DNA from: an uncultured delta proteobacterium
Lineage (GTDB): Bacteria > Desulfobacterota > BSN033 > UBA1163
DNA: 64,000 bases
Reading direction: 5' to 3'
Assembly: GCA_963826305.1 (NCBI GenBank)
Contig: CAWGWZ010000002.1
Location: forward strand, 83,412 to 147,411
This document shows, in pieces, positions 12,644 through 25,809 of this stretch. Both the position numbers and the translations under genes were made by a program. Every line of letters starts with the position of its first letter. Within the stretch, counting starts at the first letter, position 1. The notes beneath the pieces are model-generated. The model searched no databases. It was not told the DNA's origin and saw only the letters and a list, made by a program, of their open reading frames with translations.

Positions 12644-13159
12644 ATGGAACTTTTTAAAACACTATTTTCATCTTTAAACGAGGGATCAATAAAATATATG
12701 GTGGCGGGCGGCATCGCTGTAAATCTTTATGGGATTGAGAGAGCAACGGCTGACGTAGACATTGTTTTGAAGCTTGAAAAAGGGAACCTGCTAAAATTTA
12801 TAAAGGTTGCTAAAAGACTCGGTTTGAAGCCGAAGATTCCTGTCAAACTTGATGATTTCATTGATCCGGAGAAAAGAAAAAGCTGGAGGATGGATAAAGG
12901 CATGCTGGTCTTTAGCCTTTATGACCCTAAGAACCCCTTTTTTCTCATTGATATTTTTACCGAGATTCCTTTTGATTTTGATGCAGTATACAATCAGAGA
13001 AAAAAAATGAAGTTTGAAAATATCTTCATACCGGTTGTTCCAATAAAAGAACTCATAGCGATGAAAGAAAAATCAGGTAGGCCACAAGATCGGGCCGATA
13101 TTTTCCACCTCAAGAAGATCATGCACGACTGGAAGGATGAAAAAGAGAGGTCTGAGTAA
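12644..13159 (+). CDS. Minimal nucleotidyltransferase-fold protein (DUF2204/DUF6036-like)
   Basis: The GG-x9-13-DxD pattern VAGGIAVNLYGIERATADVDIV, plus a C-terminal GRPQDRADI motif. Confidence 0.6.
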   Translation: MELFKTLFSSLNEGSIKYMVAGGIAVNLYGIERATADVDIVLKLEKGNLLKFIKVAKRLGLKPKIPVKLDDFIDPEKRKSWRMDKGMLVFSLYDPKNPFFLIDIFTEIPFDFDAVYNQRKKMKFENIFIPVVPIKELIAMKEKSGRPQDRADIFHLKKIMHDWKDEKERSE

Positions 13160-13477: not shown

Positions 13478-16333
13478 TTGGAAACCATGAAAGAAGCTCT
13501 TAAGCAAATTTCCAACCTCGTTGAACGCTTCGAGCGTAATATCGAGGCCTACCATAGTCCTGTTTACAACGAAACCCAACTGCGAAGAGAATTCATCGAT
13601 CCCTTCTTTGAGGCCCTTGGTTGGGACGTGACCAATAAGGCAGGATATGCGGAGCAATATAAAGACGTCATCCACGAGGATGCTATTAAGATTGCCGGTG
13701 CTACGAAAGCACCTGATTACTGCTTTCGCATCGGAGGTGTCAGGAAGTTCTTCCTCGAAACCAAAAAGCCCTCCATCGATATCAAAAGCCAAGTCACTCC
13801 GGCCTATCAGCTAAGACGGTATGCCTGGAGCGCAAAACTTCCCATTTCTATTCTGACTGATTTTCAAGAGATGGCTATCTATGACTGCCGTCTTCGACCG
13901 AAGCCGAGCGATAAACCAAGTATTGGACGAGTCCGGCTTTACACATATACTCAATACGTCGATTCCTTTGAAGAGATCTATAACCTCCTCTCAAAAGATG
14001 CCGTCCTTAAGGGTTCTTTTGACAAATTTGCAGAATCCGAGAGGCAGAAGCGGGGAACCACAGAGGTAGATGCTGAGTTCTTAAAAGAGATTGAGTCCTG
14101 GCGTGAAGTATTGGCCAAGGACATCGCCATAAAAAACCCGAAACTGTCTATCCGGGAACTTAACTTTGCCGTTCAACTCACCATTGACCGGATCATCTTT
14201 CTACGGATGTGCGAGGATCGAGGGATTGAGCATTATGGTCAGATCCAGAATCTTCTCAATGGCACTAACACATACCGCCGTCTTCGAGAAATCTTCTACC
14301 ATGCTGATGATAAGTATAACTCCGGCCTTTTCGACTTCAGAACAGATCGATTAACTCCTGAACTCAAAATAGAAGACAAACCTTTGAAAGACATCTTTAA
14401 GAATCTCTACTATCCGGAATCTCCTTATGAATTCTCAGTCCTCGGCGCAGACATCTTAGGCCATGTTTATGAACAGTTTCTCGGGAAGGTGATCCGGCTC
14501 ACCGAAGGCCATCGGGCAAAGGTGGAAGAAAAACCCGAGGTGAGAAAGGCCGGTGGCGTCTATTACACTCCAACCTATATCGTTGAATACATCGTGAAGA
14601 ATACAGTAGGGAAACTTTGTGAAGGCAAAACTCCCAGACAGATCAGTTCCCTTCGAATCCTCGATCCAGCCTGCGGTTCAGGTTCCTTTCTCCTTGGAGC
14701 TTACCAATATCTCTTGGACTATCACTTGAATTGGTATCTCACCCGTCACTCAAAAAAGGGAAATGTAGCGCAGGGCTTTAGCCCTGCACCAAAAGAGATT
14801 TATCAGGGACGTGGCGGCCAATGGTATTTGACCATTCAAGAGAAAAAGAGGATTCTTTTGAATAATATCTATGGTGTAGATATTGATCCACAGGCAGTTG
14901 AAGTGACCAAACTGAGTTTGCTTCTCAAGGTTCTCGAAGGTGAAAATCAGGATACTTTGGAACGACAGATGAGGTTATTCAGAGAGCGGGCTTTACCTGA
15001 CCTGGGAAGCAACATCAAATGCGGGAACTCCCTAATCGGTCCCGATTTTTATCAGGGCAAACAAATGAACTTCCTCGACAACGAGGAGATTTATCGAATC
15101 AACGCCTTTGACTGGGAAAAAGAATTTTCAGACATCATGAAACAAGGTGGATTTGATGCCGTGATCGGAAATCCACCGTATGGCGCCTGGTTTCAAGCTG
15201 CTGAAGCTACTTATTTCAGTCAACAATACAAGGTTTTTGGCGGCGTTAAGGACGTATATACTTGTTTCATCGAGAGGGGTCTTGGCCTTTTGAGCAAAGG
15301 GGGAAGACTTTCCTATATTGTTCCATCAGCTTGGATTGGCGGACCAGATTACGCCAGATTACGTTCGGTTCTTTTGCACTATCGGATTGAACGTCTGATC
15401 TTGTTGCCGTTTGATGTTTTTCCAAAAGCCTACGTCGACACAACTATTGTTGTTATATCAAATGAAACCCCAGGTACAAGTCATCTTATTCAGACGCACG
15501 TTTTCGGGAAGCGCGAGAAGTTAACTCGTATCGAGCTAGAGCAAGCCGAATACAAGCGAGTAAAGCAAAGGGATTGGCAAGCAACCGAAGACCACAAGTT
15601 TGTCCTTGACCCTGAGACGGTTTATCTGCTTCGTCGATTGAGAGTTAATTGCCCGCATACCCTAAGTGATGTGGTTCACATGAAGCGGGGAGTTCTGTTC
15701 GATAAGTCGCTGCTAACAAGTAAACCCATTTCTGATCAGAGTCATCGATATTTTGAGGGCAATGTGTACCGGTACAAAATCAATGTAATAGCAAATCAGT
15801 GGATAGAGTTTGGCGATAAGATGAGGGAAAGGCCCAAAGAGTTTTTCTGGTTCGAAGGAAGGAGATTATTACTTCGGCGACTTGTCAACCGCCGCCAACA
15901 ATTGATGGCGGCATTAACCGAAGTAACATTTATTACAAACAAAAACCTGTATACCGTTCGAGTACGTGACAATAACATCGATATTCGAGTATTACTTGGT
16001 GTGCTCAATAGTAAGTTGATTTCTTTTCTTTACATTAAACAGGTAACACAGGCTGTTAAAGACGATTTTCCTCAAGTCACAATTAAAGATATTCTTTCGT
16101 TGCCTTTCCCCTCAGCCACAATCATTGCCGAACATGCCCCCAGGATGGTTGAACTGGTCGAACAGATGCTATCGCTTCACAAACAGTTGGTGGCGGCAAA
16201 AACTCCAGACAACAAGACCCGATTGCAACGTCAGATTGACGCCATCGACCACCAAATCGATTACCTCGTGTACGAGTTGTATGAGTTGACGAAGGAAGAG
16301 ATCAGGATTGTTGAGGATGAGAAAGGAAAGTAA
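13478..16333 (+). CDS. Type IIG restriction-modification enzyme (fused PD-ExK nuclease, gamma-class N6-adenine methyltransferase and TaqI-like specificity domain)
   Basis: The N-terminus YNETQLRREFIDPFFEALGWDV with APDY...FFLETKKP forms an HSDR_N-type D..ExK motif. DPACGSGSFL is motif I and GNPPYG is motif IV. The C-terminal LGVLNSKLISFLY is TRD-like. Confidence 0.85.
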   Translation: METMKEALKQISNLVERFERNIEAYHSPVYNETQLRREFIDPFFEALGWDVTNKAGYAEQYKDVIHEDAIKIAGATKAPDYCFRIGGVRKFFLETKKPSIDIKSQVTPAYQLRRYAWSAKLPISILTDFQEMAIYDCRLRPKPSDKPSIGRVRLYTYTQYVDSFEEIYNLLSKDAVLKGSFDKFAESERQKRGTTEVDAEFLKEIESWREVLAKDIAIKNPKLSIRELNFAVQLTIDRIIFLRMCEDRGIEHYGQIQNLLNGTNTYRRLREIFYHADDKYNSGLFDFRTDRLTPELKIEDKPLKDIFKNLYYPESPYEFSVLGADILGHVYEQFLGKVIRLTEGHRAKVEEKPEVRKAGGVYYTPTYIVEYIVKNTVGKLCEGKTPRQISSLRILDPACGSGSFLLGAYQYLLDYHLNWYLTRHSKKGNVAQGFSPAPKEIYQGRGGQWYLTIQEKKRILLNNIYGVDIDPQAVEVTKLSLLLKVLEGENQDTLERQMRLFRERALPDLGSNIKCGNSLIGPDFYQGKQMNFLDNEEIYRINAFDWEKEFSDIMKQGGFDAVIGNPPYGAWFQAAEATYFSQQYKVFGGVKDVYTCFIERGLGLLSKGGRLSYIVPSAWIGGPDYARLRSVLLHYRIERLILLPFDVFPKAYVDTTIVVISNETPGTSHLIQTHVFGKREKLTRIELEQAEYKRVKQRDWQATEDHKFVLDPETVYLLRRLRVNCPHTLSDVVHMKRGVLFDKSLLTSKPISDQSHRYFEGNVYRYKINVIANQWIEFGDKMRERPKEFFWFEGRRLLLRRLVNRRQQLMAALTEVTFITNKNLYTVRVRDNNIDIRVLLGVLNSKLISFLYIKQVTQAVKDDFPQVTIKDILSLPFPSATIIAEHAPRMVELVEQMLSLHKQLVAAKTPDNKTRLQRQIDAIDHQIDYLVYELYELTKEEIRIVEDEKGK

Positions 16334-16489
16334 CTGAGGAAATATCATATTGAGAGCCCAAGTAAGCGAAATAACACAAATGAATAGCAATTGTACCCCA
16401 CTAAAATCTTTTGAATTTCTGATATTTTGTTTGCCAAAATCCACTCATGGGCATAGGATTAGGAGGAATTATGAGTTGAAGTTTAATTA

Positions 16490-18010
16490 TTGTTCGGCGG
16501 ACAAACTCATAGGCTGACCACAATGCATATAGATGTTGAAAAATACAGTTTCGCTGTCTTTCCATTTTTGAAAACCAGCGATGCGGTTTCGATCGGCGAT
16601 ATTACCTTTCGCTCTACCGAGGATACCGAACACCTAGCAGCAGGGCAGGCGGTGTACGTAAAAGAAATCGCAGGCATGCTTTTCCTGCAAGATAACCTTC
16701 GCTTGCGTTCCGCCACCTACGCCATCATTCCTTACGTGGACCTCAATGATCCAGGGGTAGATCTGCAGCTTCTCGCCAACATCCAAGCCGTCGTAGCATA
16801 CCTCTATGCTTCACCCCACGACATATTTGGCGATCTTTTCCTTTCATCCGAACACGCCACTATGGCAATTTTGAGTCCAAGCCACGTACCGATCGATGTT
16901 GTCCGGCCAGATTTTCACGTCGAAGCAACGGAACCTCCCGCAGACCTCACGCCTGACTCCCGCGGTGAAGTTAAGGGATACGCAGGCCTGTATAATTTTC
17001 GTCACTACTTTTGGGCGGCTAAAGGGTCACGTCTGTACGGCCCAAAGCCTCATATGACTTTGAACATATCGCAAGACTTAAGCGCTGACCTGACACGCGC
17101 GGCAGATGCGAGGGCCGACTATCGCTTACTGCCTAAACTACTGCGGAAGCCTAAAACCACTGTGTCATCCCGGATCTTTACAGCGATCCGCTGGTTCAAT
17201 GCTGCAAATGACAAGTCGAATGACGACTCAACCGCCATCATCAATCTGGCGATTGCTTTTGAATCTCTTCTGAGTTTACCCGCTGACGAAAAGACTGACA
17301 GATTGATTGACACGATTGCGCTGCTGCTTGGGAGAATTTCGAGATTAGATATTTGGGCTCGACAGTTTTATGACACTCGCTCCAGAATCGTTCACGAAGG
17401 ACGTGCAGAGCAGTTGCACTTCGTCGCGACTGACCTGCGGAAAATCTCGGATGGACCGCTGTATCGCTCGCTTCTCTCGTACGGAAGGCAAATATTTCAG
17501 CTCTGTCTTGGGGCACTGCTGGTAGGGGCGGATCTCGCAGAACAGGCTGGTCTTGAGGAGAAACTTGTCACAAACCAAGAGCGGTTTGTTCAAGTATGCA
17601 AAATTCTCTCCGATGAAACGATAGGCGCGTGTGAACGACTGAAGCATGTAGCCCCAGCAGTAGCTGCTGTAGAGCGATATCGTTTCGTTTCCGAGAGCGG
17701 CATCAGGCTCGACGCTATGATAGGCAGTGTTCGTCTTGCTGCCAAAGCGCTACTTGCCTGTGAGAGCGGCTTGGCGCAGGAACTGAAAGAACGTCTCGAG
17801 TGCTTCGTGGCTTCGAAACAAACAAATGATCACCTTAATCAACTCGAGGCACTATGCGCTCTCGATCACAGCTTTCCAGACGAGCCTTCTACGCCGGGGA
17901 TGTCTCACATTCAAACAGTGCGAAAGCTTGTAAAGGTGGTCTGGGGGTATGTCTTTATGCATTACTACTGGTTGAAGGAGCGCCAGCCAGCCGAACATGG
18001 CAAAGCGTAA
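16490..18010 (+). CDS. Hypothetical 506-aa protein with central HEPN-like domain (RSRIVHEG, Rx4H)
   Basis: IINLAIAFESLLS....LIDTIALLLG....FYDTRSRIVHEG resembles the four-helix HEPN pattern. The Rx4H codons lie at 17377-17394. The start is uncertain (TTG at 16490 or ATG at 16523). Confidence 0.6.
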   Translation: MFGGQTHRLTTMHIDVEKYSFAVFPFLKTSDAVSIGDITFRSTEDTEHLAAGQAVYVKEIAGMLFLQDNLRLRSATYAIIPYVDLNDPGVDLQLLANIQAVVAYLYASPHDIFGDLFLSSEHATMAILSPSHVPIDVVRPDFHVEATEPPADLTPDSRGEVKGYAGLYNFRHYFWAAKGSRLYGPKPHMTLNISQDLSADLTRAADARADYRLLPKLLRKPKTTVSSRIFTAIRWFNAANDKSNDDSTAIINLAIAFESLLSLPADEKTDRLIDTIALLLGRISRLDIWARQFYDTRSRIVHEGRAEQLHFVATDLRKISDGPLYRSLLSYGRQIFQLCLGALLVGADLAEQAGLEEKLVTNQERFVQVCKILSDETIGACERLKHVAPAVAAVERYRFVSESGIRLDAMIGSVRLAAKALLACESGLAQELKERLECFVASKQTNDHLNQLEALCALDHSFPDEPSTPGMSHIQTVRKLVKVVWGYVFMHYYWLKERQPAEHGKA

Positions 18011-18110
18011 GTCACTTTCGACACCGCGCCGCTTAGACCGTAAAGCCGCTGTTCGAACGTTCAGATAAATGGGACATCCTATATTGTTCCTGTCAAGAGG
18101 GAAAACGAAG

Positions 18111-18135
18111 AAAAGGGGGCGGTTCCCTTTCTTTT
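18111..18135 (+). repeat. Island junction motif, copy 1 (aaaagggggcggttccctttctttt)
   Basis: Matches consensus WAAAGGGGRCGGYTCTATTTYT; intergenic. Confidence 0.7.
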
Positions 18136-18155
18136 AACTTCCTGGATTTTTATCG

Positions 18156-19142
18156 ATGGCTGTAGATAATAGACAACTCGCCTATCTCAATACTGATTAT
18201 TCTGCTCAGACAGGAATAATAGTCCAAAAGTTTGTCTGTCCTATTACCCTTGATGATGACCCTAATGCCGAATTATGCGATGGACACATACTCAATCAGC
18301 GCATCAACAAAGCTTCTCGGGTAACGGTAATCCAACGAAAGGACGTTGATAATTATTTTGGCCATACCATCGAGCCAGATTTAGTCAAAATGTTAAATAT
18401 TCCTGTTTCCACAAAACAGGAATTGATTCGCAAAGCTCGTAATCTCAGAATCACTGCTCCATCTGGTGAGAAGATGGGGACCTTCTTTTCTAACACCGAA
18501 GCTGGGGGGAGATTTCAGCAGATCAATCTCTTCAACCCAGATGGGACAACTATGATTTCACCATTTCTAAGGAATGGTAGGCTTGAAAACAAGTATTACA
18601 AGGATCTGGAGGTCGAGTTTACTATTACAGTAACCAACTCCGCCATTATAGGCTCTCTCCTCAAAAGTGGTTATCTTGCGCTCTTTCGAATGCTTGGTTA
18701 CAGATGGGTTCTCGATGCTTCTGGTGATAAGGTACGCCGCGCCTTGGCTGCGTTCTACCAAGACAAAGCAGATAGGGAACAGTCAATCAACTACTTTGCT
18801 GAATTCAACGGATCGATTTCCGTTTTGTCCAATGATACCATGAACGATATGGGTGATACACTGGAAGACGGTTTGCTCTTGTTCCACTATGTAGATGGTG
18901 ACCAAGAAACCGGCCTTCTCTTTGCTGTGACATGCCTCTTCCGCGTCAACGACCGCACTTTATCTGTTACGTTACCATGTTATCAGAAGAAGGGTTACTA
19001 TTTGGTCGCATATCAGTACTATCAGGCTTTACTAAAGGATCGTTCGGTATGCCAAAATGTCTATTCTGTCCGATTTGATAAGGAGCAGTTTAATATATCG
19101 ACTACACCACTGCGATTACACTACAAAGAAAAGCAGGAATAA
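18156..19142 (+). CDS. Hypothetical 328-aa protein, possible degenerate HNH (HNH_5-like) N-terminus
   Basis: FVCPITLDDDPNAELCDGHILNQ...VIQRKDVDNYFGHTIE resembles the C..C...EHIIP...CN.FG..iE layout, but the cysteine ligands are lost. The call is weak. Confidence 0.45.
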   Translation: MAVDNRQLAYLNTDYSAQTGIIVQKFVCPITLDDDPNAELCDGHILNQRINKASRVTVIQRKDVDNYFGHTIEPDLVKMLNIPVSTKQELIRKARNLRITAPSGEKMGTFFSNTEAGGRFQQINLFNPDGTTMISPFLRNGRLENKYYKDLEVEFTITVTNSAIIGSLLKSGYLALFRMLGYRWVLDASGDKVRRALAAFYQDKADREQSINYFAEFNGSISVLSNDTMNDMGDTLEDGLLLFHYVDGDQETGLLFAVTCLFRVNDRTLSVTLPCYQKKGYYLVAYQYYQALLKDRSVCQNVYSVRFDKEQFNISTTPLRLHYKEKQE

Positions 19143-19161: not shown

Positions 19162-19184
19162 AAAAGGGGACGGTTCTATTTCTC
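19162..19184 (+). repeat. Island junction motif, copy 2 (aaaaggggacggttctatttctc)
   Basis: Lies 20 nt after the stop of 18156-19142. Confidence 0.8.
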
Positions 19185-20782: not shown

Positions 20783-20805
20783 AAAAGGGGACGGTTCTAT
20801 TTTTA
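20783..20805 (+). repeat. Island junction motif, copy 3 (aaaaggggacggttctattttta)
   Basis: Starts a roughly 105-bp block homologous to 25283-25397. Confidence 0.85.
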
Positions 20806-20822
20806 CGAGGGTAACCCCCGTT

Positions 20823-20893
20823 TCAATGTATCGCTCGACGATAGATGCTCTCCATTTCTTTGTGAGTACATTCTTCGCACCAATATTGTGATA
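20823..20893 (-). pseudogene. 3'-terminal remnant of a paralogue of the Zn-ribbon gene 25333-25809
   Basis: Encodes ..QYWCEECTHKEMESIYRRAIH*, compared with ..EYWCEECTRKEMEGAFPRLKH* in the intact gene. An identical 22-nt run is shared (20866-20887 = 25376-25397). The frame is closed upstream by TAG. Confidence 0.75.
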
Positions 20894-20925: not shown

Positions 20926-20948
20926 ATAAAGGGACGGTTCTATTAATA
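20926..20948 (+). repeat. Island junction motif, copy 4 (ataaagggacggttctattaata)
   Basis: Immediately flanks the Zn-ribbon remnant. Confidence 0.75.
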
Positions 20949-21069: not shown

Positions 21070-21345
21070 TTGAGCAAGATTAGACGAATTAAAGAACTTG
21101 TTCGCAATGGTCTATATTATCTCACAGAACATGCCGATGACGAAGCCATGGCAGAAGGCTTTGACATTTACGATATAGAATATGGCATATTAACGGGAAG
21201 GATTCGCCGAACTTGGCCGCGAGAAGGCAAATATGAGGTTGTCGGCTCGGCACTGGATCAACGTCCCATCGGGATTGTATGCCGCATTACTCAAACAGGT
21301 AAAGTCCGTGTTATAACCGTTTACGAAGATCAACCTAAGAAATGA
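21070..21345 (+). CDS. DUF4258-family toxin-like protein
   Basis: YYLTEHADDEAMAEGFDIYDIEYGILTG...VGSALDQRPIGIVCRI...VRVITVY fits the DUF4258 pattern. TTG start with RBS AAGGAG. Confidence 0.7.
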   Translation: MSKIRRIKELVRNGLYYLTEHADDEAMAEGFDIYDIEYGILTGRIRRTWPREGKYEVVGSALDQRPIGIVCRITQTGKVRVITVYEDQPKK

Positions 21346-21355
21346 AAAGGAGGAA

Positions 21356-21598
21356 ATGATGGAATTTTGGAAGGGCGAACGCTGTGAATATTGTAATGGA
21401 GTAATCGTCGAGAAGAAAGTAAACTTGTCTCGGAAGGTTAGGGGCACATATGTGGTTATTGAAAACGTGCCTGCCGGTGTGTGCAAAGAATGCGGTACAC
21501 GTTACTATGCAGCGAATGTCCTCAAGACCGTTGAAGAGACTATCCGTGGGCGCCGTAAGGCAGAACGCCAGATTCTTGTACCTATTTACTCACTATGA
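21356..21598 (+). CDS. YgiT-type zinc-finger protein (MqsA-N-terminal-like antitoxin partner)
   Basis: The pattern CEYCNG....VPAGVCKECGTRY and adjacency to the DUF4258 gene. Confidence 0.8.
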   Translation: MMEFWKGERCEYCNGVIVEKKVNLSRKVRGTYVVIENVPAGVCKECGTRYYAANVLKTVEETIRGRRKAERQILVPIYSL

Positions 21599-21663: not shown

Positions 21664-22353
21664 ATGCTCAAACCCATTAAATATTCAACCGAGGGTTTAA
21701 TTGAAAACCAGTACGAACATGGAGCCAAAGTTTTAAAAAATAAGCTTGGAATCCGAAAGCGGAGCGAAATGGACCAGCTGGAAGCTACGGCTTTCCAAAA
21801 GACGCAAATTCATTTTTACAAACTTTTTTCAGAAGATCCCCCCCCTGCCATTACAGAAAACCTGATAAAGGAGATGCATCATCATTGGTTGAAGGGGATT
21901 TATCAATGGGCGGGGAATTATAGACGGGTTAATTTAAGCAAAGAGGGGATTACATTTCCTCCGGAATCATTGCAGGACGGAAGCCCAAACATTCCAAGAC
22001 TGATGGAAGAATTCGAAAGGGAAATTCTGGGAAACTGCACCTCCTTGGAAAAAGGTGAAGATCTTTCAAAGGTCGCCCGGGCTATAGCTATTATCCATGG
22101 GGAATTCGAAATGATTCACCCTTTCAGAGAAGGAAACGGAAGGATCGGCCGTTTAATAGCCGACCTCATGGCGCTTCAAGCAGGATATCCCCCCTTATTA
22201 TTTGATATAGAAGGAAAACCTCAAAAAAAAGACCTCTACTTCAAGGCTATGAAAGAGGTTTTTATCAATAAGAATTATGATCCATTAACAGACGTACTTG
22301 AGAAAGCCATGAAAATTGGAATTGAAAAAGCAAGAGAGAGTAGTGTTTCCTAA
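21664..22353 (+). CDS. fic: Fic family protein (AMPylase-type Fido domain)
   Basis: Canonical HPFREGNGRIGR motif. Confidence 0.9.
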   Translation: MLKPIKYSTEGLIENQYEHGAKVLKNKLGIRKRSEMDQLEATAFQKTQIHFYKLFSEDPPPAITENLIKEMHHHWLKGIYQWAGNYRRVNLSKEGITFPPESLQDGSPNIPRLMEEFEREILGNCTSLEKGEDLSKVARAIAIIHGEFEMIHPFREGNGRIGRLIADLMALQAGYPPLLFDIEGKPQKKDLYFKAMKEVFINKNYDPLTDVLEKAMKIGIEKARESSVS

Positions 22354-23193: not shown

Positions 23194-23631
23194 TCACAAA
23201 TTCTGTAAGAACAAAAGTTTTAGAAACTCAGCAGGAGATAATATCTTTGTCCTTTGATATTCTTTCAAAGGTAGGAGATGCTTTCTGTCACCAGAAATGA
23301 GGTATTGAACCCTTCCTTCAATGGCACATTCTAAAATGCGGTTATCATCCTCCTTTTCTTTAATAACAGAGACCTTGTTCTTCGGGTGGATTAGGATTGT
23401 CTTAGCTTTGATTTTTTCTATTGTGTGCTTAATTTGATCTTTGTCCCAACCGAAATCCTTTTTAAGAGTTTCTTCTAACTCTTTTAAAATAAAAGGAGAG
23501 ATACAGGCTTCTATATACCCTCTCCAGACCAAATCTAAAACCTCTCTGGGTTTACCTTTGAAAGTTAACCCAGAGACAAAGACATTGGTGTCGATTACCA
23601 CCTTTGGTTTTAATTTACTTTCGGCGGGCAT
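23194..23631 (-). CDS. PIN-domain toxin (TIGR00305-like PIN family)
   Basis: VVIDTNVFVSGL N-terminal acidic motif, D near ISGDRKHL, and a 17-nt overlap with the upstream RHH gene. Confidence 0.85.
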   Translation of the reverse strand: MPAESKLKPKVVIDTNVFVSGLTFKGKPREVLDLVWRGYIEACISPFILKELEETLKKDFGWDKDQIKHTIEKIKAKTILIHPKNKVSVIKEKEDDNRILECAIEGRVQYLISGDRKHLLPLKEYQRTKILSPAEFLKLLFLQNL

Positions 23632-23851
23632 CGATAATATCTTCTATTTGGTCTTCGGTGATTCCTTTTTCCCTTGCCTTTATTTCCCCGTAACGGTAGA
23701 TTTTTCTCATTTCCTGTTCCTCAGCATATCTTCGGAGGGCTTCTCTCAAGAGCTCGCTCCTTGTTCTGCCCTCTTCTTTCATTAGCTCCTCAATTTTATC
23801 CACCATCTCGGGAGGCAAAGATAAGGTTATAGTCTTACTTATTCTGGCCAT
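23615..23851 (-). CDS. Ribbon-helix-helix (CopG family) antitoxin
   Basis: ITLSLPPEMVDKIEELMKEEGRTRSELLREALRRY is a typical RHH sequence. Confidence 0.85.
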   Translation of the reverse strand: MARISKTITLSLPPEMVDKIEELMKEEGRTRSELLREALRRYAEEQEMRKIYRYGEIKAREKGITEDQIEDIIDARRK

Positions 23852-23875: not shown

Positions 23876-25230
23876 GTTACTAACTGAAGTTTTGCACTTT
23901 TTATTGAGTGCATAAGAAAGGCTGTTATCCTAAAATAGGCTAAAAAAAGCGCCAACTTAGTTTAGCCCGAAAAGGAGAACAGCCTATGATGAACATTCGA
24001 AATGCAAAACAAGATATCCAAGGACTATTATCCTGTTTCTCTGAAGTTTTTTCAAGACCTTCCTTCAAACTATTCTCCTCTTTTGTCATCGGGTTTATCC
24101 AGTTGGGTAAGGAAACTCATACCTCCTCGATGGTCCAATCTCTCAGCTTTTCATTCCTTCATCGATCTCTCTCCAGTTTCACCCGATTCCTTGGGCAAAA
24201 CGTCTGGGCCATGGAGGAGGTGGCCGAAACCGCCTTGGAGCAATTCTTTCATACCCTGCACATTAAAGCCCATTCCGTACTCTTTCTTATCGTGGATGAC
24301 ACGATCACCCACAAGAGTGGCAAAAAGATTCCAGGATGCGCTTGGCATCGCGATCATGCTCAGAAGGCTTATGTCTTTGGCCACCAATGGGTCCTCTCGG
24401 CCTTGCTCTATAAGGACTTTCTTCTGCCCCTCTGGGCCAAACTCTATCATCCGAAAGGGACCAAGGGATGCGGTTCGTTCCGGACCAAGATTACCATGGC
24501 CCAAAAGATGCTCCAAGCCCTTCGGCTCCCGATCTCTTGTAAAGTCTACCTTCTGGCGGATAGCTGGTATTGGGCGAAACAATTGGCTCAGCTTTGTCGA
24601 AAGTATGGTTACCATATGATCTCTCAACTCAGAACCACTTCTGTTCTCTTCATGAATGGAGAAAAAACCAAAGTCACCACTCTTTCTACTCTCCATTCAG
24701 CCTATCGAGAAGTCTCTCTGTTCGTCTATGGGAAAAACAAGACCCTCAAGATCGCCCGATTCGTTGGCATCATCCAGGGTCTGGGCAAAGTAGCGGTCGT
24801 GGTCGTGAAAGAGAAACGAAAGAAGACCTCCTATCTTGTTTCTACGAATCTCCATCTCTCTGCCTTGGATATCGTTAAATATTACGCCAAACGCTGGAAG
24901 ATTGAACAGATGATCAAAGACCTGAAACAAAGATTAGGTCTTGGGCATTATCAAGTTCGAAATCCTCAAGCCATCCAGCGTCATGTGGCCTTAGTCCTTC
25001 TGAGTTATTGCATCTTAATCCTTTTGAAAATCCTTCAGCGATTAAGGGATCCACGTGCCTCCGGGGACCTGTCGATTCGCTCTTTAGCCTTCCATGTAAG
25101 AAAACATATCTTGTTGGAAAACATCACCATAACTTTTAAAGCCATGAGAATTCGATTTCAACAAAATATTCTCGATAGTTATCTTGAAAAATTATGGGTC
25201 TAAAAAAGTGCAAAACTTTAGTTACTAAGT
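23876..25230 (+). mobile_element. Insertion sequence (IS4/IS701-superfamily DDE transposase) with about 22-27-bp terminal inverted repeats and a probable 5-bp TSD (TTAGT)
   Basis: IRL is GTTACTAACTGAAGTTTTGCACTTTTT (23876-23902). IRR is AAAAAGTGCAAAACTTTAGTTACTAAG (25203-25229). TTAGT occurs at 23871-23875 and 25231-25235. Confidence 0.8.
23986..25203 (+). CDS. DDE transposase (IS4/IS701-like)
   Basis: Candidate catalytic residues LIVDDT (D), LLADSWY (D) and YAKRWKIEQMIKDLK (E..K); 405 aa. Confidence 0.85.
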   Translation: MMNIRNAKQDIQGLLSCFSEVFSRPSFKLFSSFVIGFIQLGKETHTSSMVQSLSFSFLHRSLSSFTRFLGQNVWAMEEVAETALEQFFHTLHIKAHSVLFLIVDDTITHKSGKKIPGCAWHRDHAQKAYVFGHQWVLSALLYKDFLLPLWAKLYHPKGTKGCGSFRTKITMAQKMLQALRLPISCKVYLLADSWYWAKQLAQLCRKYGYHMISQLRTTSVLFMNGEKTKVTTLSTLHSAYREVSLFVYGKNKTLKIARFVGIIQGLGKVAVVVVKEKRKKTSYLVSTNLHLSALDIVKYYAKRWKIEQMIKDLKQRLGLGHYQVRNPQAIQRHVALVLLSYCILILLKILQRLRDPRASGDLSIRSLAFHVRKHILLENITITFKAMRIRFQQNILDSYLEKLWV

Positions 25231-25282: not shown

Positions 25283-25305
25283 TAAAGGGGACGGCTCTAT
25301 TTTTA
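25283..25305 (+). repeat. Island junction motif, copy 5 (taaaggggacggctctattttta)
   Basis: Lies 28 nt beyond the stop of the Zn-ribbon gene. Confidence 0.85.
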
Positions 25306-25332
25306 AGGGAATTACGAATTTACCACCGGGGT

Positions 25333-25809
25333 TCAATGTTTTAATCGAGGGAAGGCGCCCTCCATTTCCTTCCGTGTACATTCTTCGCACCAATATTCGC
25401 TTCCTTTTGTTGAATAGCTATCATATCCCAGAGAGATAACTGCTCCGCAATTTGCACATTTGGTAGGCAAGTACGCGGGAGGATTTTCCAGTTTTTGGAA
25501 ATTGAACTCATTCGTTCCATAAAAGACGTACATCTCAGTTTCAAAGAAGTTCCTGCACTTCGGACAGTCCTTCCAGCCGCCTGGATGTTCTTCAGTATGA
25601 TGGTATCCACAGAGAGTGTAACGTCTGTGATTCCTGTAGCAGCTATTTCTTGCATAGGAAAACAGAACATATTTGTCTTCATCATCACAAATCCACTGAC
25701 CGCAACATTCTGTTTTCGTCAATTTTTTTGTTTTCCCGCATAGGCCACACCTTGGCTTACCATCAGCCTTGTTCTCTTTTCGTGCCCTGGATTTTGCTTT
25801 AGTAGGCAT
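25333..25809 (-). CDS. Cys/His-rich zinc-ribbon protein (158 aa), function unknown
   Basis: Motifs CGLCGKTKKLTKTECCGQWIC, CGYHH, CPKC, CANCG and CEEC, with a basic N-terminus. Confidence 0.65.
   Translation of the reverse strand: MPTKAKSRARKENKADGKPRCGLCGKTKKLTKTECCGQWICDDEDKYVLFSYARNSCYRNHRRYTLCGYHHTEEHPGGWKDCPKCRNFFETEMYVFYGTNEFNFQKLENPPAYLPTKCANCGAVISLGYDSYSTKGSEYWCEECTRKEMEGAFPRLKH

What the first reader, a model, noticed from the sequence alone, without database searches (positions are those of the whole stretch)
16490..19142. Orphan HEPN-like (RSRIVHEG) 506-aa protein and degenerate HNH-like 328-aa protein directly downstream of a type IIG RM enzyme
Gene 16490-18010 has a central segment, ..AIINLAIAFESLLSLPADEKTDRLIDTIALLLGRISRLDIWARQFYDTRSRIVHEG.. 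This reproduces the layout of HEPN RNase domains: a conserved E-containing helix, then Rx4H followed by G. The flanking ~210-aa N-terminal and ~170-aa C-terminal regions are unrecognisable to me. Gene 18156-19142 starts with FVCPITLDDDPNAELCDGHILNQ...VIQRKDVDNYFGHTIE. This resembles HNH_5-type nucleases (C..C...EHIIP...CN.FG..iE) but lacks the zinc cysteines. Both genes follow the single-chain RM enzyme (13478-16333) on the same strand. By eye, the HEPN-like gene is more G+C-rich than its neighbours, which suggests mosaic acquisition. RM-linked HEPN anticodon nucleases (PrrC with EcoprrI) are an established precedent for an RM enzyme paired with an abortive-infection backup. This pair could be an undescribed analogue, or two independent single-gene defence cassettes.
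Basis: partly seen in the sequence, partly recalled or inferred. Interest (0 to 1): 0.7.

Follow-up and report, generated by a model that had tools for sequence, protein, structure and literature searches.

The report
ApeA-like RNase cassette beside restriction enzyme
Two uncharacterised genes follow a restriction enzyme but are independent solo genes, not a pair: one is a recently inserted cassette encoding a probable infection-triggered RNase distantly related to the known defence protein ApeA, and the other has no recognisable fold and no support for the proposed DNA-cutting (HNH) identity.

Summary
Both ORFs are real and belong to conserved families with no Pfam, NCBIfam, PADLOC or PHROG match. 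The 506-aa ORF probably starts at 16523, giving 495 aa.

**506-aa family**
- It is large: 619 hits among 50%-identity cluster representatives.
- E258, QFY292-294, R297, S298, H302 and G304 are essentially invariant in 276 members.
- The predicted helices fit the HEPN layout.
- A profile of the central domain finds only ApeA cryo-EM structures at the top of the whole PDB (E = 0.009-0.046). Its R-x4-H aligns with ApeA's catalytic R502/H507.
- I read it as an ApeA-type HEPN RNase in a different three-domain architecture.

**328-aa family**
- There is no support for HNH: hhalign against HNH_5 gives ≤2.6%, and PDB sequence and fold searches find nothing.

**No linkage**
- None of 59 independent 506-family loci has a 328-family gene within 10 kb.
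- A syntenic contig has RM followed directly by the 328 gene with no 506 gene.
- Another contig carries an HNH_5 gene in the same slot.
- Between window and L066 the cassette (16334-18105) is 98.5-100% identical, against flanks of 81% and 94%.

A PrrC-like coupling to the RM enzyme is unsupported. These are two independent solo genes in a defence/toxin-antitoxin island.

The parts
13478..16333 (+). Single-chain type IIG restriction-modification enzyme (951 aa). It is the resident neighbour, not shown to be functionally coupled.
   Evidence: Pfam finds HSDR_N, N6_Mtase, Eco57I and TaqI_C. PADLOC REase_MTase_IIG scores E = 7.8e-199.
16334..18105 (+). Discrete 1.77-kb single-gene cassette: 189-bp leader, the gene, and a 95-bp tail. 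It sits between the RM stop codon and a conserved hairpin motif.
   Evidence: The cassette is absent from syntenic L067 and L065 and is replaced by an HNH_5 gene in L064. Between window and L066 it is 99.5/98.5/100% identical by segment, against 81.4% for the RM part and 94.3% for the 328 gene. The gene's GC is 0.508 against flanks of 0.43-0.45.
16523..18010 (+). Gene for the ~495-aa three-domain protein.
   Evidence: Homologues begin at the position of M12, and P0001 (97% identical) is 495 aa. The AF2 model has pLDDT 82.8.
16523..17128 (+). N-terminal alpha/beta domain (residues 12-213) with many invariant polar and aromatic residues (E121, H122, N169, H172, N192, Q195, D196). I infer it to be a sensor or ligand-binding domain.
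   Evidence: Conservation comes and secondary structure. No match was found in any library. The sensor role is inference by analogy with ApeA.
17129..17557 (+). Central ApeA-type HEPN domain (residues 214-356). Helices are H1 224-239, H2 246-261, an insert helix 268-280, H3 286-303, a beta-hairpin insert 310-327, and H4 328-352.
   Evidence: Helix positions come from DSSP on the AF2 model. In profile searches against the PDB the best natural-protein hits are Ec2ApeA and Ec3ApeA, at E = 0.009-0.046 with the more diverse profile, matching two collinear segments.
17261..17263 (+). Codon for E258, the invariant acidic residue in HEPN helix 2 (AFESLL).
   Evidence: E258 is conserved in 274/274 members. 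It aligns with the AIESLI segment of Ec2ApeA. The translation was checked.
17378..17401 (+). RSRIVHEG, the R297-x4-H302 catalytic motif at the C-terminal end of helix 3, followed by G304.
   Evidence: R297 is conserved in 276/276 members, H302 in 275/276 and G304 in 273/275. The motif aligns residue for residue with Ec2ApeA R502-N-L-I-V-H507-T-G509. R502A is the catalytic mutant in the ApeA preprint.
17558..18007 (+). C-terminal all-helical domain (residues 357-506). Its role is unknown; an extension of the HEPN domain or an oligomerisation surface is inferred.
   Evidence: The domain is conserved across the family.
18111..18130 (+). Copy 1 of the island-specific motif AAAAGGGG[A/G]CGG[T/C]TC..TTT. 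It is a terminator-like hairpin, it marks the right boundary of the cassette slot, and it lies 25 nt before the 328-aa gene.
   Evidence: The motif is conserved upstream of the 328 gene in L064, L065 and L067.
18156..19142 (+). Gene for the 328-aa protein, a separate solo-gene family of unknown fold and function.
   Evidence: The family has 75 clusters. The AF2 model has pLDDT 92.8 and pTM 0.90. No library or structure match was found. dN/dS against relatives is 0.18-0.27.
18231..18380 (+). Conserved N-terminal segment FVCPITL...CDGH...QRKDVDNxFGxxIE (residues 26-75). It has a predicted beta(40-44)-beta(57-61)-alpha(62-71) topology with invariant C28, P29, H44 and D65 and near-invariant Q60 and E73.
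   Evidence: The HNH_5 relationship was tested and not found.
19162..19181 (+). Motif copy 2, immediately after the stop of the 328-aa gene.
20783..20802 (+). Motif copy 3. A weaker copy 4 lies at 20926-20945.
25283..25302 (+). Motif copy 5, near the right end of the island.

Best explanation
The region is part of a low-GC defence and toxin-antitoxin island (about 12.5-25.9 kb) between priA and core metabolic genes.

**The 506/495-aa gene.** 16334-18105 is a discrete, recently transferred single-gene cassette. Its ~495-aa product has three domains:
- an unrecognised N-terminal alpha/beta domain;
- a central HEPN RNase domain of the ApeA type, with E258 in helix 2 and R297-x4-H302 at the end of helix 3;
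- a C-terminal helical domain.

I infer that it works as a stand-alone abortive-infection effector. It would be kept inactive until an infection-derived signal is sensed through the non-catalytic domains. The invariant R285 and W289, on the helix just upstream of the catalytic motif, align with the ApeA ligand-pocket residues R490 and Q494. The HEPN dimer would then cleave RNA, most likely tRNA anticodon loops, in a metal-independent way and stop growth.

**The 328-aa gene.** This is a different, independently distributed solo gene. It is resident behind the RM gene in this lineage and is often found in conflict islands elsewhere. Its fold matches nothing known and its function is open. A small beta-beta-alpha (His-Me-like) nuclease site around H44/D65 is only a hypothesis.

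**What is shown and what is inferred.** Shown: family conservation, cassette boundaries, lack of co-occurrence, and the ApeA-register match. Inferred: RNase activity, activation by a ligand, and a defence role.

Neither gene forms a system with the other, and neither is shown to depend on the RM enzyme.
For: **HEPN identity**
- The motif positions are invariant in 276 members that go down to about 25% identity.
- The predicted helix layout matches the published HEPN definition: R-x4-H at the end of helix 3, an acidic residue in helix 2, and an insert between helices 2 and 3 (against PMC3710099).
- Central-domain profiles give Ec2ApeA and Ec3ApeA as the best natural proteins out of 177,635 distinct PDB sequences. 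E is 0.27-0.38 with A5 and 0.009-0.046 with the more diverse A10.
- Those matches fall in two collinear segments: AFESLL with AIESLI, and WxxQFYxxRSxxVHxG with WQIRRIYRTRNLIVHTG.
- R502 is the catalytic residue mutated in the ApeA work, and R490 and Q494 are pocket residues there.
- JGI labels three members 'Apea-like HEPN'.

**Cassette and independence**
- L067 has priA, RM and the 328 gene in synteny but no 506 gene. L064 has an HNH_5 gene in the slot. L065 keeps the 328 gene beside an RM remnant.
- Identity between window and L066 is 98.5-100% for the cassette, against 81% and 94% for the flanks.
- The gene's GC is 0.508 against 0.43-0.45 in the flanks.
- None of the 59 genome loci carrying the 506 family has a 328-family gene within 10 kb.
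- The 506 family has no conserved neighbour.

**Conflict-island context**
- Flanks of the 506 family include type IIG and type I RM, DISARM, BREX, PARIS AriA, GajA, MADS, SspH, HamB and Old.
- Flanks of the 328 family include type ISP RM twice, GmrSD, SIR2_2, Schlafen/AlbA_2, CHAT, and PIN and ParE toxin-antitoxin genes.
Against: - No Pfam, NCBIfam, PADLOC or PHROG model hits either protein, including HEPN_Apea and the PADLOC ApeA model.
- Whole-chain Foldseek of the 506 model finds no HEPN structure in the PDB or BFVD. The best E-values are 0.5-0.7.
- The ApeA sequence match is only borderline significant (best E = 0.009).
- The full-length profile A1 gave no PDB hit at all.
- Three-dimensional proximity of E258 to R297 and H302 could not be checked.
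- Many immediate upstream neighbours of 506 homologues are housekeeping genes (PNPase, RNase J, enolase) rather than defence genes.
- Defence enrichment was not measured against a background.
- No experiment bears on RNase activity, toxicity or phage defence.
Confidence: 0.68

Rival explanations
1. This is an RM-coupled backup, a PrrC/EcoprrI analogue. The type IIG enzyme would hold the HEPN protein (and/or the 328-aa protein) inactive, and a phage anti-restriction factor would release the nuclease.
For: - The genes are adjacent and on the same strand directly after the RM gene.
- In relatives the same slot behind the RM gene carries either this HEPN gene or an HNH_5 gene.
- Two of 106 upstream neighbours of 506 homologues are type IIG RM enzymes.
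- 328 homologues lie next to type ISP RM genes in two other lineages.
- ApeA-type and PrrC-type HEPN genes are reported in R-M operons (PMC3710099).
Against: - The 506 family has no conserved neighbour in 59 loci. Most copies sit beside housekeeping or unrelated genes.
- The cassette is absent from syntenic L067, which has an intact RM gene.
- The 328 gene stays intact and under purifying selection beside a decayed RM remnant in L065.
- The RM-adjacent 328 homologues are co-directional, convergent or divergent in different lineages.
- There is no ABC-ATPase or other PrrC-like regulatory domain.
Confidence: 0.08
2. The 328-aa protein is a degenerate HNH / His-Me-finger DNase. H44 would be the general base and D65/N66 plus E73 the metal ligands. 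It would act as a solo defence or toxin nuclease.
For: - H44 and D65 are invariant, and Q60 and E73 nearly so.
- The confident AF2 model places H44 at the end of a beta strand, followed by a second strand and a helix carrying D65/N66, which is a beta-beta-alpha arrangement.
- The gene is frequently found in conflict islands.
- The DGH...DN...E spacing recalls DRGH-type beta-beta-alpha-Me nucleases. This last point comes from my own memory and was not tested.
Against: - No Pfam HNH-clan hit at E <= 1.
- hhalign against an HNH_5 family alignment gives probability 0.5% for the full length and 2.6% for the motif region, and not in the proposed register.
- PDB sequence searches with the full and the N-terminal profile return nothing or noise.
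- Foldseek against the PDB has a best E of 0.3, to beta-lactamases.
- The zinc-binding cysteines that define HNH_5 are absent.
- The same segment also resembles the U-box 'FxCPIxL' motif by eye, which shows how weak such by-eye resemblances are.
Confidence: 0.3
3. The two genes form one two-component system, with one protein as sensor and the other as effector.
For: The genes are adjacent and co-directional, 145 bp apart, in the window and in L066.
Against: - L066 is a near-identical relative of the window, so it is not independent evidence.
- None of 59 independent 506-family loci has a 328-family gene within 10 kb.
- Among the 328-family loci and places examined (about 27 in all), the only one with a 506-family gene is L066. 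L064, L065 and L067, whose 328 genes are 92-96% identical to the window's, lack it.
- A terminator-like hairpin separates the two genes.
- dS differs eight-fold between the two genes for the same pair of contigs, 0.020 against 0.163.
Confidence: 0.03
4. The 506-aa protein is not an immune effector. It would be a selfish toxin, an addiction module, or an accessory RNA-processing enzyme whose HEPN site serves another role.
For: - Many copies sit directly after housekeeping genes such as PNPase, RNase J and enolase rather than in obvious defence islands.
- The cassette holds no partner gene.
- About eight of 59 loci hold disrupted copies, as expected for a dispensable and possibly costly gene.
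Against: - The closest relative with a known function, ApeA, is an anti-phage abortive-infection RNase.
- A noticeable share of neighbours are known defence genes.
- The patchy distribution across phyla and the cassette-like mobility fit defence genes.
Confidence: 0.15

Closest known systems
ApeA (HEPN_ApeA, single-gene abortive-infection tRNA anticodon nuclease; bioRxiv 10.64898/2026.01.26.701840; Anantharaman et al. 2013, PMC3710099)
   Same: - It is a single polypeptide and a solo gene.
- Its HEPN core aligns in catalytic register: AFESLL with AIESLI, and R297/S298/H302/G304 with R502/N503/H507/G509.
- R285 and W289 of the window protein align with the ApeA pocket residues R490 and Q494.
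- Both have an insertion after helix 3 and large non-catalytic domains.
- ApeA genes are sometimes embedded in R-M loci.
   Different: - The domain order and content differ. ApeA has a helical N-terminal domain, a Mid domain and a C-terminal HEPN domain (335-583 of about 590 aa). Here an alpha/beta N-terminal domain is followed by a central HEPN domain and a C-terminal helical domain, in about 495 aa.
- ApeA has about 100 residues between the two matched segments. This protein has about 7.
- There is no Pfam HEPN_Apea or PADLOC ApeA hit and no full-length similarity.
- Oligomeric state, ligand and RNA target are untested.
DARNA / PD-T7-3 (bioRxiv 10.64898/2026.02.22.705581)
   Same: It follows the same principle: a single-protein HEPN R-x4-H RNase with a large non-catalytic sensor domain, activated on infection, cleaving tRNA and causing abortive infection.
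   Different: In DARNA the HEPN domain is N-terminal (1-159) and is followed by a Pds5-like helical ssDNA-binding domain. There is no sequence or PADLOC match to the window protein.
PrrC-EcoprrI (RM-linked HEPN anticodon nuclease)
   Same: It is a HEPN RNase gene placed next to a restriction-modification gene. PrrC/RloC are 'often found in R-M operon' (PMC3710099).
   Different: PrrC has an ABC-ATPase N-terminal domain and a conserved embedding in a type I hsd operon. Here there is no ATPase domain, and adjacency to RM is not conserved across the family.
   Same: There is a by-eye similarity of 'GHIL..' and 'DNxFGxxIE' to EHIxP and CNxxxG..D. A true HNH_5 gene occupies the neighbouring slot in L064.
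   Different: The CxxC...CxxC zinc ligands are absent. There is no Pfam hit, and hhalign probability against an HNH_5 family alignment is 0.5-2.6%. The protein is not a member on present evidence.

Membership tests
HEPN superfamily (definition of Anantharaman et al. 2013, PMC3710099) | Conserved R-x4-6-H motif | tested here: met
   R297-x4-H302. R is conserved in 276/276 members and H in 275/276.
HEPN superfamily | Polar residue immediately after the motif arginine (typically N, D or H) | tested here: met
   S298 is conserved in 273/276 members. It is polar, though not one of the commonest residues, and it aligns with N503 of Ec2ApeA.
HEPN superfamily | Motif at the C-terminal end of helix 3 and the start of the loop to helix 4 | tested here: met
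   DSSP on the AF2 model gives helix 286-303, with the motif at 297-302 and G304 in coil. This rests on a predicted structure only.
HEPN superfamily | Second conserved acidic residue in helix 2 (typically E-x3-[KR]) | tested here: inconclusive
   E258 is invariant (274/274) and lies in predicted helix 246-261, but the +4 position is not K or R. Its 3-D proximity to the motif could not be measured.
HEPN superfamily | Four-helix up-down bundle of about 100-120 aa, with an insert between helices 2 and 3 | tested here: inconclusive
   The order and lengths of the helices fit, with an insert helix at 268-280. Whole-chain Foldseek gave no HEPN hit in the PDB or BFVD. No domain-level search was possible.
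HEPN superfamily | Statistically supported profile match to an established HEPN family | tested here: inconclusive
   Pfam, NCBIfam, PADLOC and PHROGs give none. The central-domain profile against PDB sequences puts four ApeA entries on top, at E = 0.009-0.046 and in catalytic register. That is specific but borderline.
ApeA family proper | Full-length N-terminal + Mid + C-terminal HEPN_ApeA architecture, detectable by Pfam HEPN_Apea or the PADLOC ApeA model | tested here: not met
   There are no hits. The full-length profile finds no PDB ApeA entry. The domain order differs.
PrrC-like RM-linked anticodon nuclease | N-terminal ABC-ATPase domain and conserved linkage to an R-M operon | tested here: not met
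   There is no ATPase domain and no conserved RM neighbour in 59 loci.
HNH_5 (PF14279), for the 328-aa protein | Match to the family profile, including the CxxC...CxxC zinc ligands and the H...N...N/H catalytic motif | tested here: not met
   There is no Pfam hit at E <= 1. hhalign gives 0.5% and 2.6%. The cysteine pairs are absent.
His-Me finger (beta-beta-alpha-metal) nucleases in general, for the 328-aa protein | Beta-hairpin with the catalytic His at the end of strand 1, followed by a helix that supplies an Asn/Asp/His metal ligand | tested here: inconclusive
   The predicted topology and the invariant H44 and D65 fit. No structural or sequence match to any such nuclease was found.
Integron gene cassette array (considered for the motif-delimited slot) | Adjacent IntI tyrosine recombinase and attC sites with GTTRRRY cores | tested here: not met
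   No recombinase was found among the ORFs scanned in and beside the island. The motif is a 20-nt hairpin with no attC-like core.

The most novel reading that the evidence does not exclude
The gap between the stop codon of the type IIG RM gene and the conserved 20-nt hairpin motif would be a dedicated cassette-exchange site. Alternative nuclease effectors are swapped in behind the same restriction enzyme: an ApeA-like HEPN gene here, an HNH_5 gene in L064, and nothing in L067. In L066 the incoming cassette carries its own copy of the motif at its 3' end. That would amount to a modular 'RM plus exchangeable second-line effector' arrangement, mobilised by an unidentified site-specific mechanism that uses the island-specific motif.
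Probability: 0.1. Interest if true: 0.75.

Novelty: new variant of a known kind. Interest (0 to 1): 0.45.

Why it matters
Single-protein HEPN effectors such as ApeA and DARNA have only just been shown to sense small molecules or nucleic-acid structures produced during infection.

- **A new sensor to study.** This family is large: 619 cluster representatives with E <= 0.001, across Acidobacteriota, Alphaproteobacteria, Planctomycetota, Chloroflexota and others. It is invisible to Pfam, NCBIfam and PADLOC. It joins an ApeA-type catalytic core to a different, strongly conserved N-terminal domain. If it is a defence protein, it offers a new sensor domain, and possibly a new activating ligand, on a known effector chassis.
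- **A gap in annotation.** The family would fill a blind spot in defence-system annotation of soil and sediment bacteria.
- **A caution about adjacency.** Lying next to an RM gene does not by itself imply a PrrC-like coupling.
- **An open question.** The 328-aa family has a very confident predicted fold that matches nothing, so it remains genuinely unexplained.

Tried and rejected
1. **Family libraries.** Pfam, NCBIfam, PADLOC and PHROGs on both proteins, on 41 family members and on divergent members gave no hits.
2. **Full-length PDB searches.** Full-length profiles A1 and A2 against PDB sequences gave zero hits at E <= 10. Only the domain-restricted profiles A5 and A10 revealed ApeA.
3. **Foldseek.** Both AF2 models against the PDB, and the 506 model against BFVD, gave nothing below E = 0.3. 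The Retron-Eco7 and beta-lactamase top hits have TM about 0.1 and were dismissed.
4. **Search for distant HEPN relatives.** A HEPN-domain profile search of the 1.84-billion representative library was meant to reach distant annotated HEPN relatives. The 150 listed hits were all members of the same family, so it gave only family size and architecture.
5. **HNH_5 test.** I built an HNH_5 family alignment from the L064 slot gene. hhalign against the 328 family was negative for both the full length and the motif region.
6. **U-box lead.** I rejected it as evidence.
7. **Plasmids and phages.** tblastn found nothing for the 506 protein, and only a 23%-identity hypothetical protein on a Phycisphaera plasmid for the 328 protein.
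8. **Non-coding features.** Rfam and tRNA scans of the island found nothing. nhmmer of the cassette leader and tail against all loci matched close relatives only.
9. **Integron idea.** No integrase was found among the ORFs scanned in and beside the island, and the motif is not attC-like.
10. **Source contig.** Looking up the source contig of the window's 328-aa protein returned nothing on record.

Full report
**1. Observation**

ORF listing confirms 13478-16333 (+, 951 aa), 16490-18010 (+, 506 aa) and 18156-19142 (+, 328 aa).

- The first is a complete type IIG RM enzyme. Pfam finds HSDR_N, N6_Mtase/Eco57I and TaqI_C, and PADLOC REase_MTase_IIG scores E = 7.8e-199.
- The quoted peptides lie where stated.
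- The 506-aa start is the most upstream TTG. Homologues begin at the position of M12, and the 97%-identical P0001 is 495 aa, so ATG 16523 is the likely start.
- The 506 gene has 0.508 GC, against 0.447 for RM and 0.426 for the 328 gene. The island 12.5-25.9 kb has 0.432 and the rest of the window 0.494.

**2. Both proteins are 'dark' but real families**

Neither protein hits Pfam, NCBIfam, PADLOC or PHROGs at E <= 1. Full-length profiles also find nothing in PDB sequences.

- The 506 family has at least 499 clusters at 90% identity.
- A profile of its central domain finds 619 representatives of 50%-identity clusters at E <= 0.001, and 280 at E <= 1e-10. The full-length listed hits (about 480-510 aa) carry this domain at about 200-350; the shorter ones appear to be fragments.
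- In one-genome-per-species contigs it occurs in Acidobacteriota, Alphaproteobacteria (including Bradyrhizobium), Planctomycetota, Chloroflexota, Nitrospirota, Desulfobacterota and others.
- The 328 family is smaller, with 75 clusters.

**3. HEPN test for the 506/495-aa protein**

I took the defining features from Anantharaman et al. 2013 (PMC3710099).

- *Conservation.* In 276 members down to about 25% identity the most conserved positions of the central domain are E258 (274/274), Q292-F293-Y294 (276/276), R297 (276/276), S298 (273/276), H302 (275/276) and G304 (273/275).
- *Predicted structure.* The AF2 model (pLDDT 82.8) has helices 224-239, 246-261 (carrying E258), an extra helix 268-280, helix 286-303 (with R-x4-H at its C-terminal end), a beta-hairpin 310-327, and helix 328-352. 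This is the published HEPN layout: the motif at the end of helix 3, the acidic residue in helix 2, and an insert between helices 2 and 3.
- *Fold search.* Whole-chain Foldseek against the PDB and BFVD gave nothing. That is a weak test for a four-helix domain inside a three-domain model.
- *The informative result.* Domain-restricted profiles searched against PDB sequences gave the key evidence.
  - With A5 (29 sequences), two of the three hits at E <= 10 were Ec2ApeA and Ec3ApeA.
  - With the more diverse A10 (59 sequences), the top four of 177,635 distinct sequences were all ApeA entries, at E = 0.009-0.046.
  - The match has two collinear segments. 'nLaiAfEsLL' aligns with Ec2ApeA 'NLWIAIESLI' (about 366-375). 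'rldsWleQFYeaRseivHeG' aligns with 'RINWQIRRIYRTRNLIVHTG' (490-509).
  - This places R297, S298, H302 and G304 on R502, N503, H507 and G509. R502A is the catalytic mutant used for the best ApeA structure.
  - The invariant R285 and W289 fall on R490 and Q494, which line the ApeA ligand pocket.
  - Three family members carry the JGI name 'Apea-like HEPN'.

I conclude with about 85% confidence that the central domain is an ApeA-type HEPN domain.

The protein is not an ApeA orthologue. The domain order differs, the N-terminal alpha/beta domain has no match, and the ApeA models in Pfam and PADLOC do not hit.

**4. HNH test for the 328-aa protein**

- C28, P29, H44, D65, K170, F214 and P274 are invariant.
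- The very confident AF2 model (pLDDT 92.8, pTM 0.90) puts H44 at the end of strand 40-44, followed by strand 57-61 and helix 62-71 carrying D65/N66. This is a beta-beta-alpha arrangement compatible with a His-Me finger.
- Every homology test was negative.
  - Pfam gave no hit.
  - The full PDB profile and the N-terminal profile gave nothing or noise.
  - Foldseek against the PDB had a best E of 0.3, to beta-lactamases.
- The same segment looks by eye as much like a U-box 'FxCPIxL' motif, with hhalign probability 14.7% over 12 residues. Such by-eye resemblances therefore carry little weight.
- The gene is under purifying selection, with dN/dS 0.18-0.27.

Its function remains open. A small metal-dependent nuclease site is a hypothesis, to which I give about 0.3.

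**5. Are the genes linked to each other or to the RM enzyme?**

*Linkage between the two genes*
- 59 genome loci carry the 506 family with up to 10 kb of flank. None has a 328-family gene, and no other gene family recurs next to it.
- Among the 328-family loci, only L066 has both genes, and L066 is a close relative of the window.

*Comparison with related contigs*
- L067 is syntenic (priA, type IIG RM, 328 gene), but the RM stop codon is followed directly by the hairpin and the 328 gene.
- L065 has the same junction beside a decayed RM remnant.
- L064 has a 425-aa HNH_5 gene in the slot.

*Identity between window and L066, by segment*

| Segment | Identity |
|---|---|
| RM 3' part | 81.4% |
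| Cassette leader | 99.5% |
| Cassette gene | 98.5% |
| Cassette tail | 100% |
| 328 gene | 94.3% |
| Downstream of the 328 gene | 76.7% |

dS is 0.020 for the 506 gene against 0.163 for the 328 gene. So 16334-18105 is a discrete cassette that arrived, or was exchanged, recently.

*Neighbours of the 506 family*
- Immediate co-directional upstream genes are often housekeeping: PNPase, RNase J (twice), enolase and Ldh_2.
- Within ±2 genes PADLOC finds type IIG RM (twice), type I RM, DISARM, BREX BrxH, PARIS AriA (three times), GajA (twice), MADS mad3 (three times), SspH, HamB, Old, SoFic and several PDC candidates.
- This suggests defence-island residence, but I did not measure it against a background.
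- About eight of the 59 loci carry disrupted copies.

*Neighbours of the 328 family*
- It lies next to type ISP RM genes in two further lineages, in divergent and convergent orientation. It also lies near GmrSD, SIR2_2, Schlafen/AlbA_2, CHAT, a helicase-nuclease, and PIN and ParE toxin-antitoxin genes.
- It also sits twice directly after thiC, and elsewhere beside ordinary genes.

Neither family occurs in sequenced phages. Only a 23%-identity relative of the 328 protein was found on a plasmid.

A PrrC-like coupling is therefore not supported. It would need an ATPase regulatory domain and conserved embedding in an R-M operon, and neither is present.

**6. Mechanism proposed**

*Shown*
- A conserved three-domain family with an ApeA-register HEPN core.
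- Cassette-like mobility.
- No partner gene inside the cassette: the 189-bp leader and 95-bp tail hold no ORF beyond a two-codon mini-ORF.

*Inferred from ApeA and DARNA*
- The protein dimerises through the HEPN domain.
- It is held inactive until a signal produced during infection binds a pocket between the N-terminal domain and the helix preceding the catalytic motif.
- It then cleaves RNA, probably tRNA anticodon loops, and causes abortive infection.

**7. Novelty and verdict**

- The 'pair' is not a system, and the HNH label is unsupported.
- The HEPN label is right, and the domain is more specifically ApeA-like.
- The family is a new architectural variant of a known kind, the single-protein HEPN abortive-infection effector. 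It is currently missed by all the annotation libraries tested.
- Interest is moderate, at 0.45. The family would be a useful addition to defence catalogues and a potential new sensor domain, but not a new principle.
- The island-specific 20-nt motif at cassette junctions is the most unusual loose end.

Noticed in passing
window 18111-18130, 19162-19181, 20783-20802, 20926-20945, 25283-25302; L066:3860-3879: A 20-nt motif, AAAAGGGG[A/G]CGG[T/C]TC..TTT, occurs five times. All copies are on the + strand and all lie inside the island, where shuffles predict about 0.4 matches (mean 0.36 for the 13-nt core pattern with one mismatch). The copies sit at gene and cassette junctions. In L066 the 506 cassette is followed by its own copy and then the resident copy. 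The motif is terminator-like, has no Rfam match, and has no recombinase nearby.
   Followed up: partly
L064:832-2106 (+): In a close relative, the slot between the RM gene and the 328-aa gene holds a 425-aa protein with a true HNH_5 domain (Pfam E = 7.5e-9) instead of the HEPN cassette. Its family (27 clusters) has a conserved C-terminal domain and, in some members, a helical N-terminal extension.
   Followed up: partly
window 15180-16145 compared with L067: The middle-to-C-terminal part of the type IIG RM gene, the target-recognition region, does not align between the window and syntenic L067, although both ends do at 76-84% identity. Overall dS is 1.4. This suggests the specificity domain has been swapped or has diverged.
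   Followed up: no
window 16461-16480: A strong Shine-Dalgarno sequence (AGGAGG) is followed by a two-codon mini-ORF (ATG AGT TGA) in the cassette leader, 43 nt upstream of the likely start of the HEPN-like gene.
   Followed up: no
window 12644-13159, 21070-21598, 21664-22353, 23194-23851: The island also carries other conflict genes: an AbiEii/DUF6036-like nucleotidyltransferase, a DUF4258 toxin followed by an 80-aa putative antitoxin, a Fic protein, and a PIN_3 toxin with an RHH antitoxin.
   Followed up: partly
window 23877-25228: A DDE_Tnp_1 (IS4-like) transposase gene at 23986-25203 is flanked by 26-nt inverted repeats (23877-23902 and 25203-25228, 92% complementary).
   Followed up: partly
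window 20822-20887 and 25332-25397: A 66-nt direct repeat (79% identical), together with the adjacent motif copy, looks like a remnant of the 3' end of the Cys-rich ORF 25333-25809 (-) duplicated at 20.8 kb.
   Followed up: no
L015, L030, L058, L038 (506 family); L062/L063, L082 (328 family): Both solo-gene families repeatedly sit a few tens of bases downstream of, and co-directional with, housekeeping genes. The 506 family follows PNPase, RNase J (twice) and enolase. The 328 family follows thiC in two lineages, each with different cargo after it (a ParE toxin-antitoxin pair or a Schlafen/AlbA_2 gene). These look like insertion hot spots at the 3' ends of conserved genes.
   Followed up: partly
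L077:204-2312: Two 328-family genes lie in tandem on one short metagenomic contig.
   Followed up: no
L043, L045, L047, L048, L052, L046: Several 506-family copies are split by frameshifts. In L046 a truncated copy (residues about 20-339) is followed, in the same stop-free reading frame (a 1419-codon stop-to-stop ORF), by a DEAD/ResIII helicase-like sequence. Pseudogenisation appears frequent.
   Followed up: no
window 18231-18290 (328-aa residues 26-45): The segment F-x-C-P-I-T-L...D-P...G-H resembles the start of eukaryotic U-box domains by eye.
   Followed up: yes
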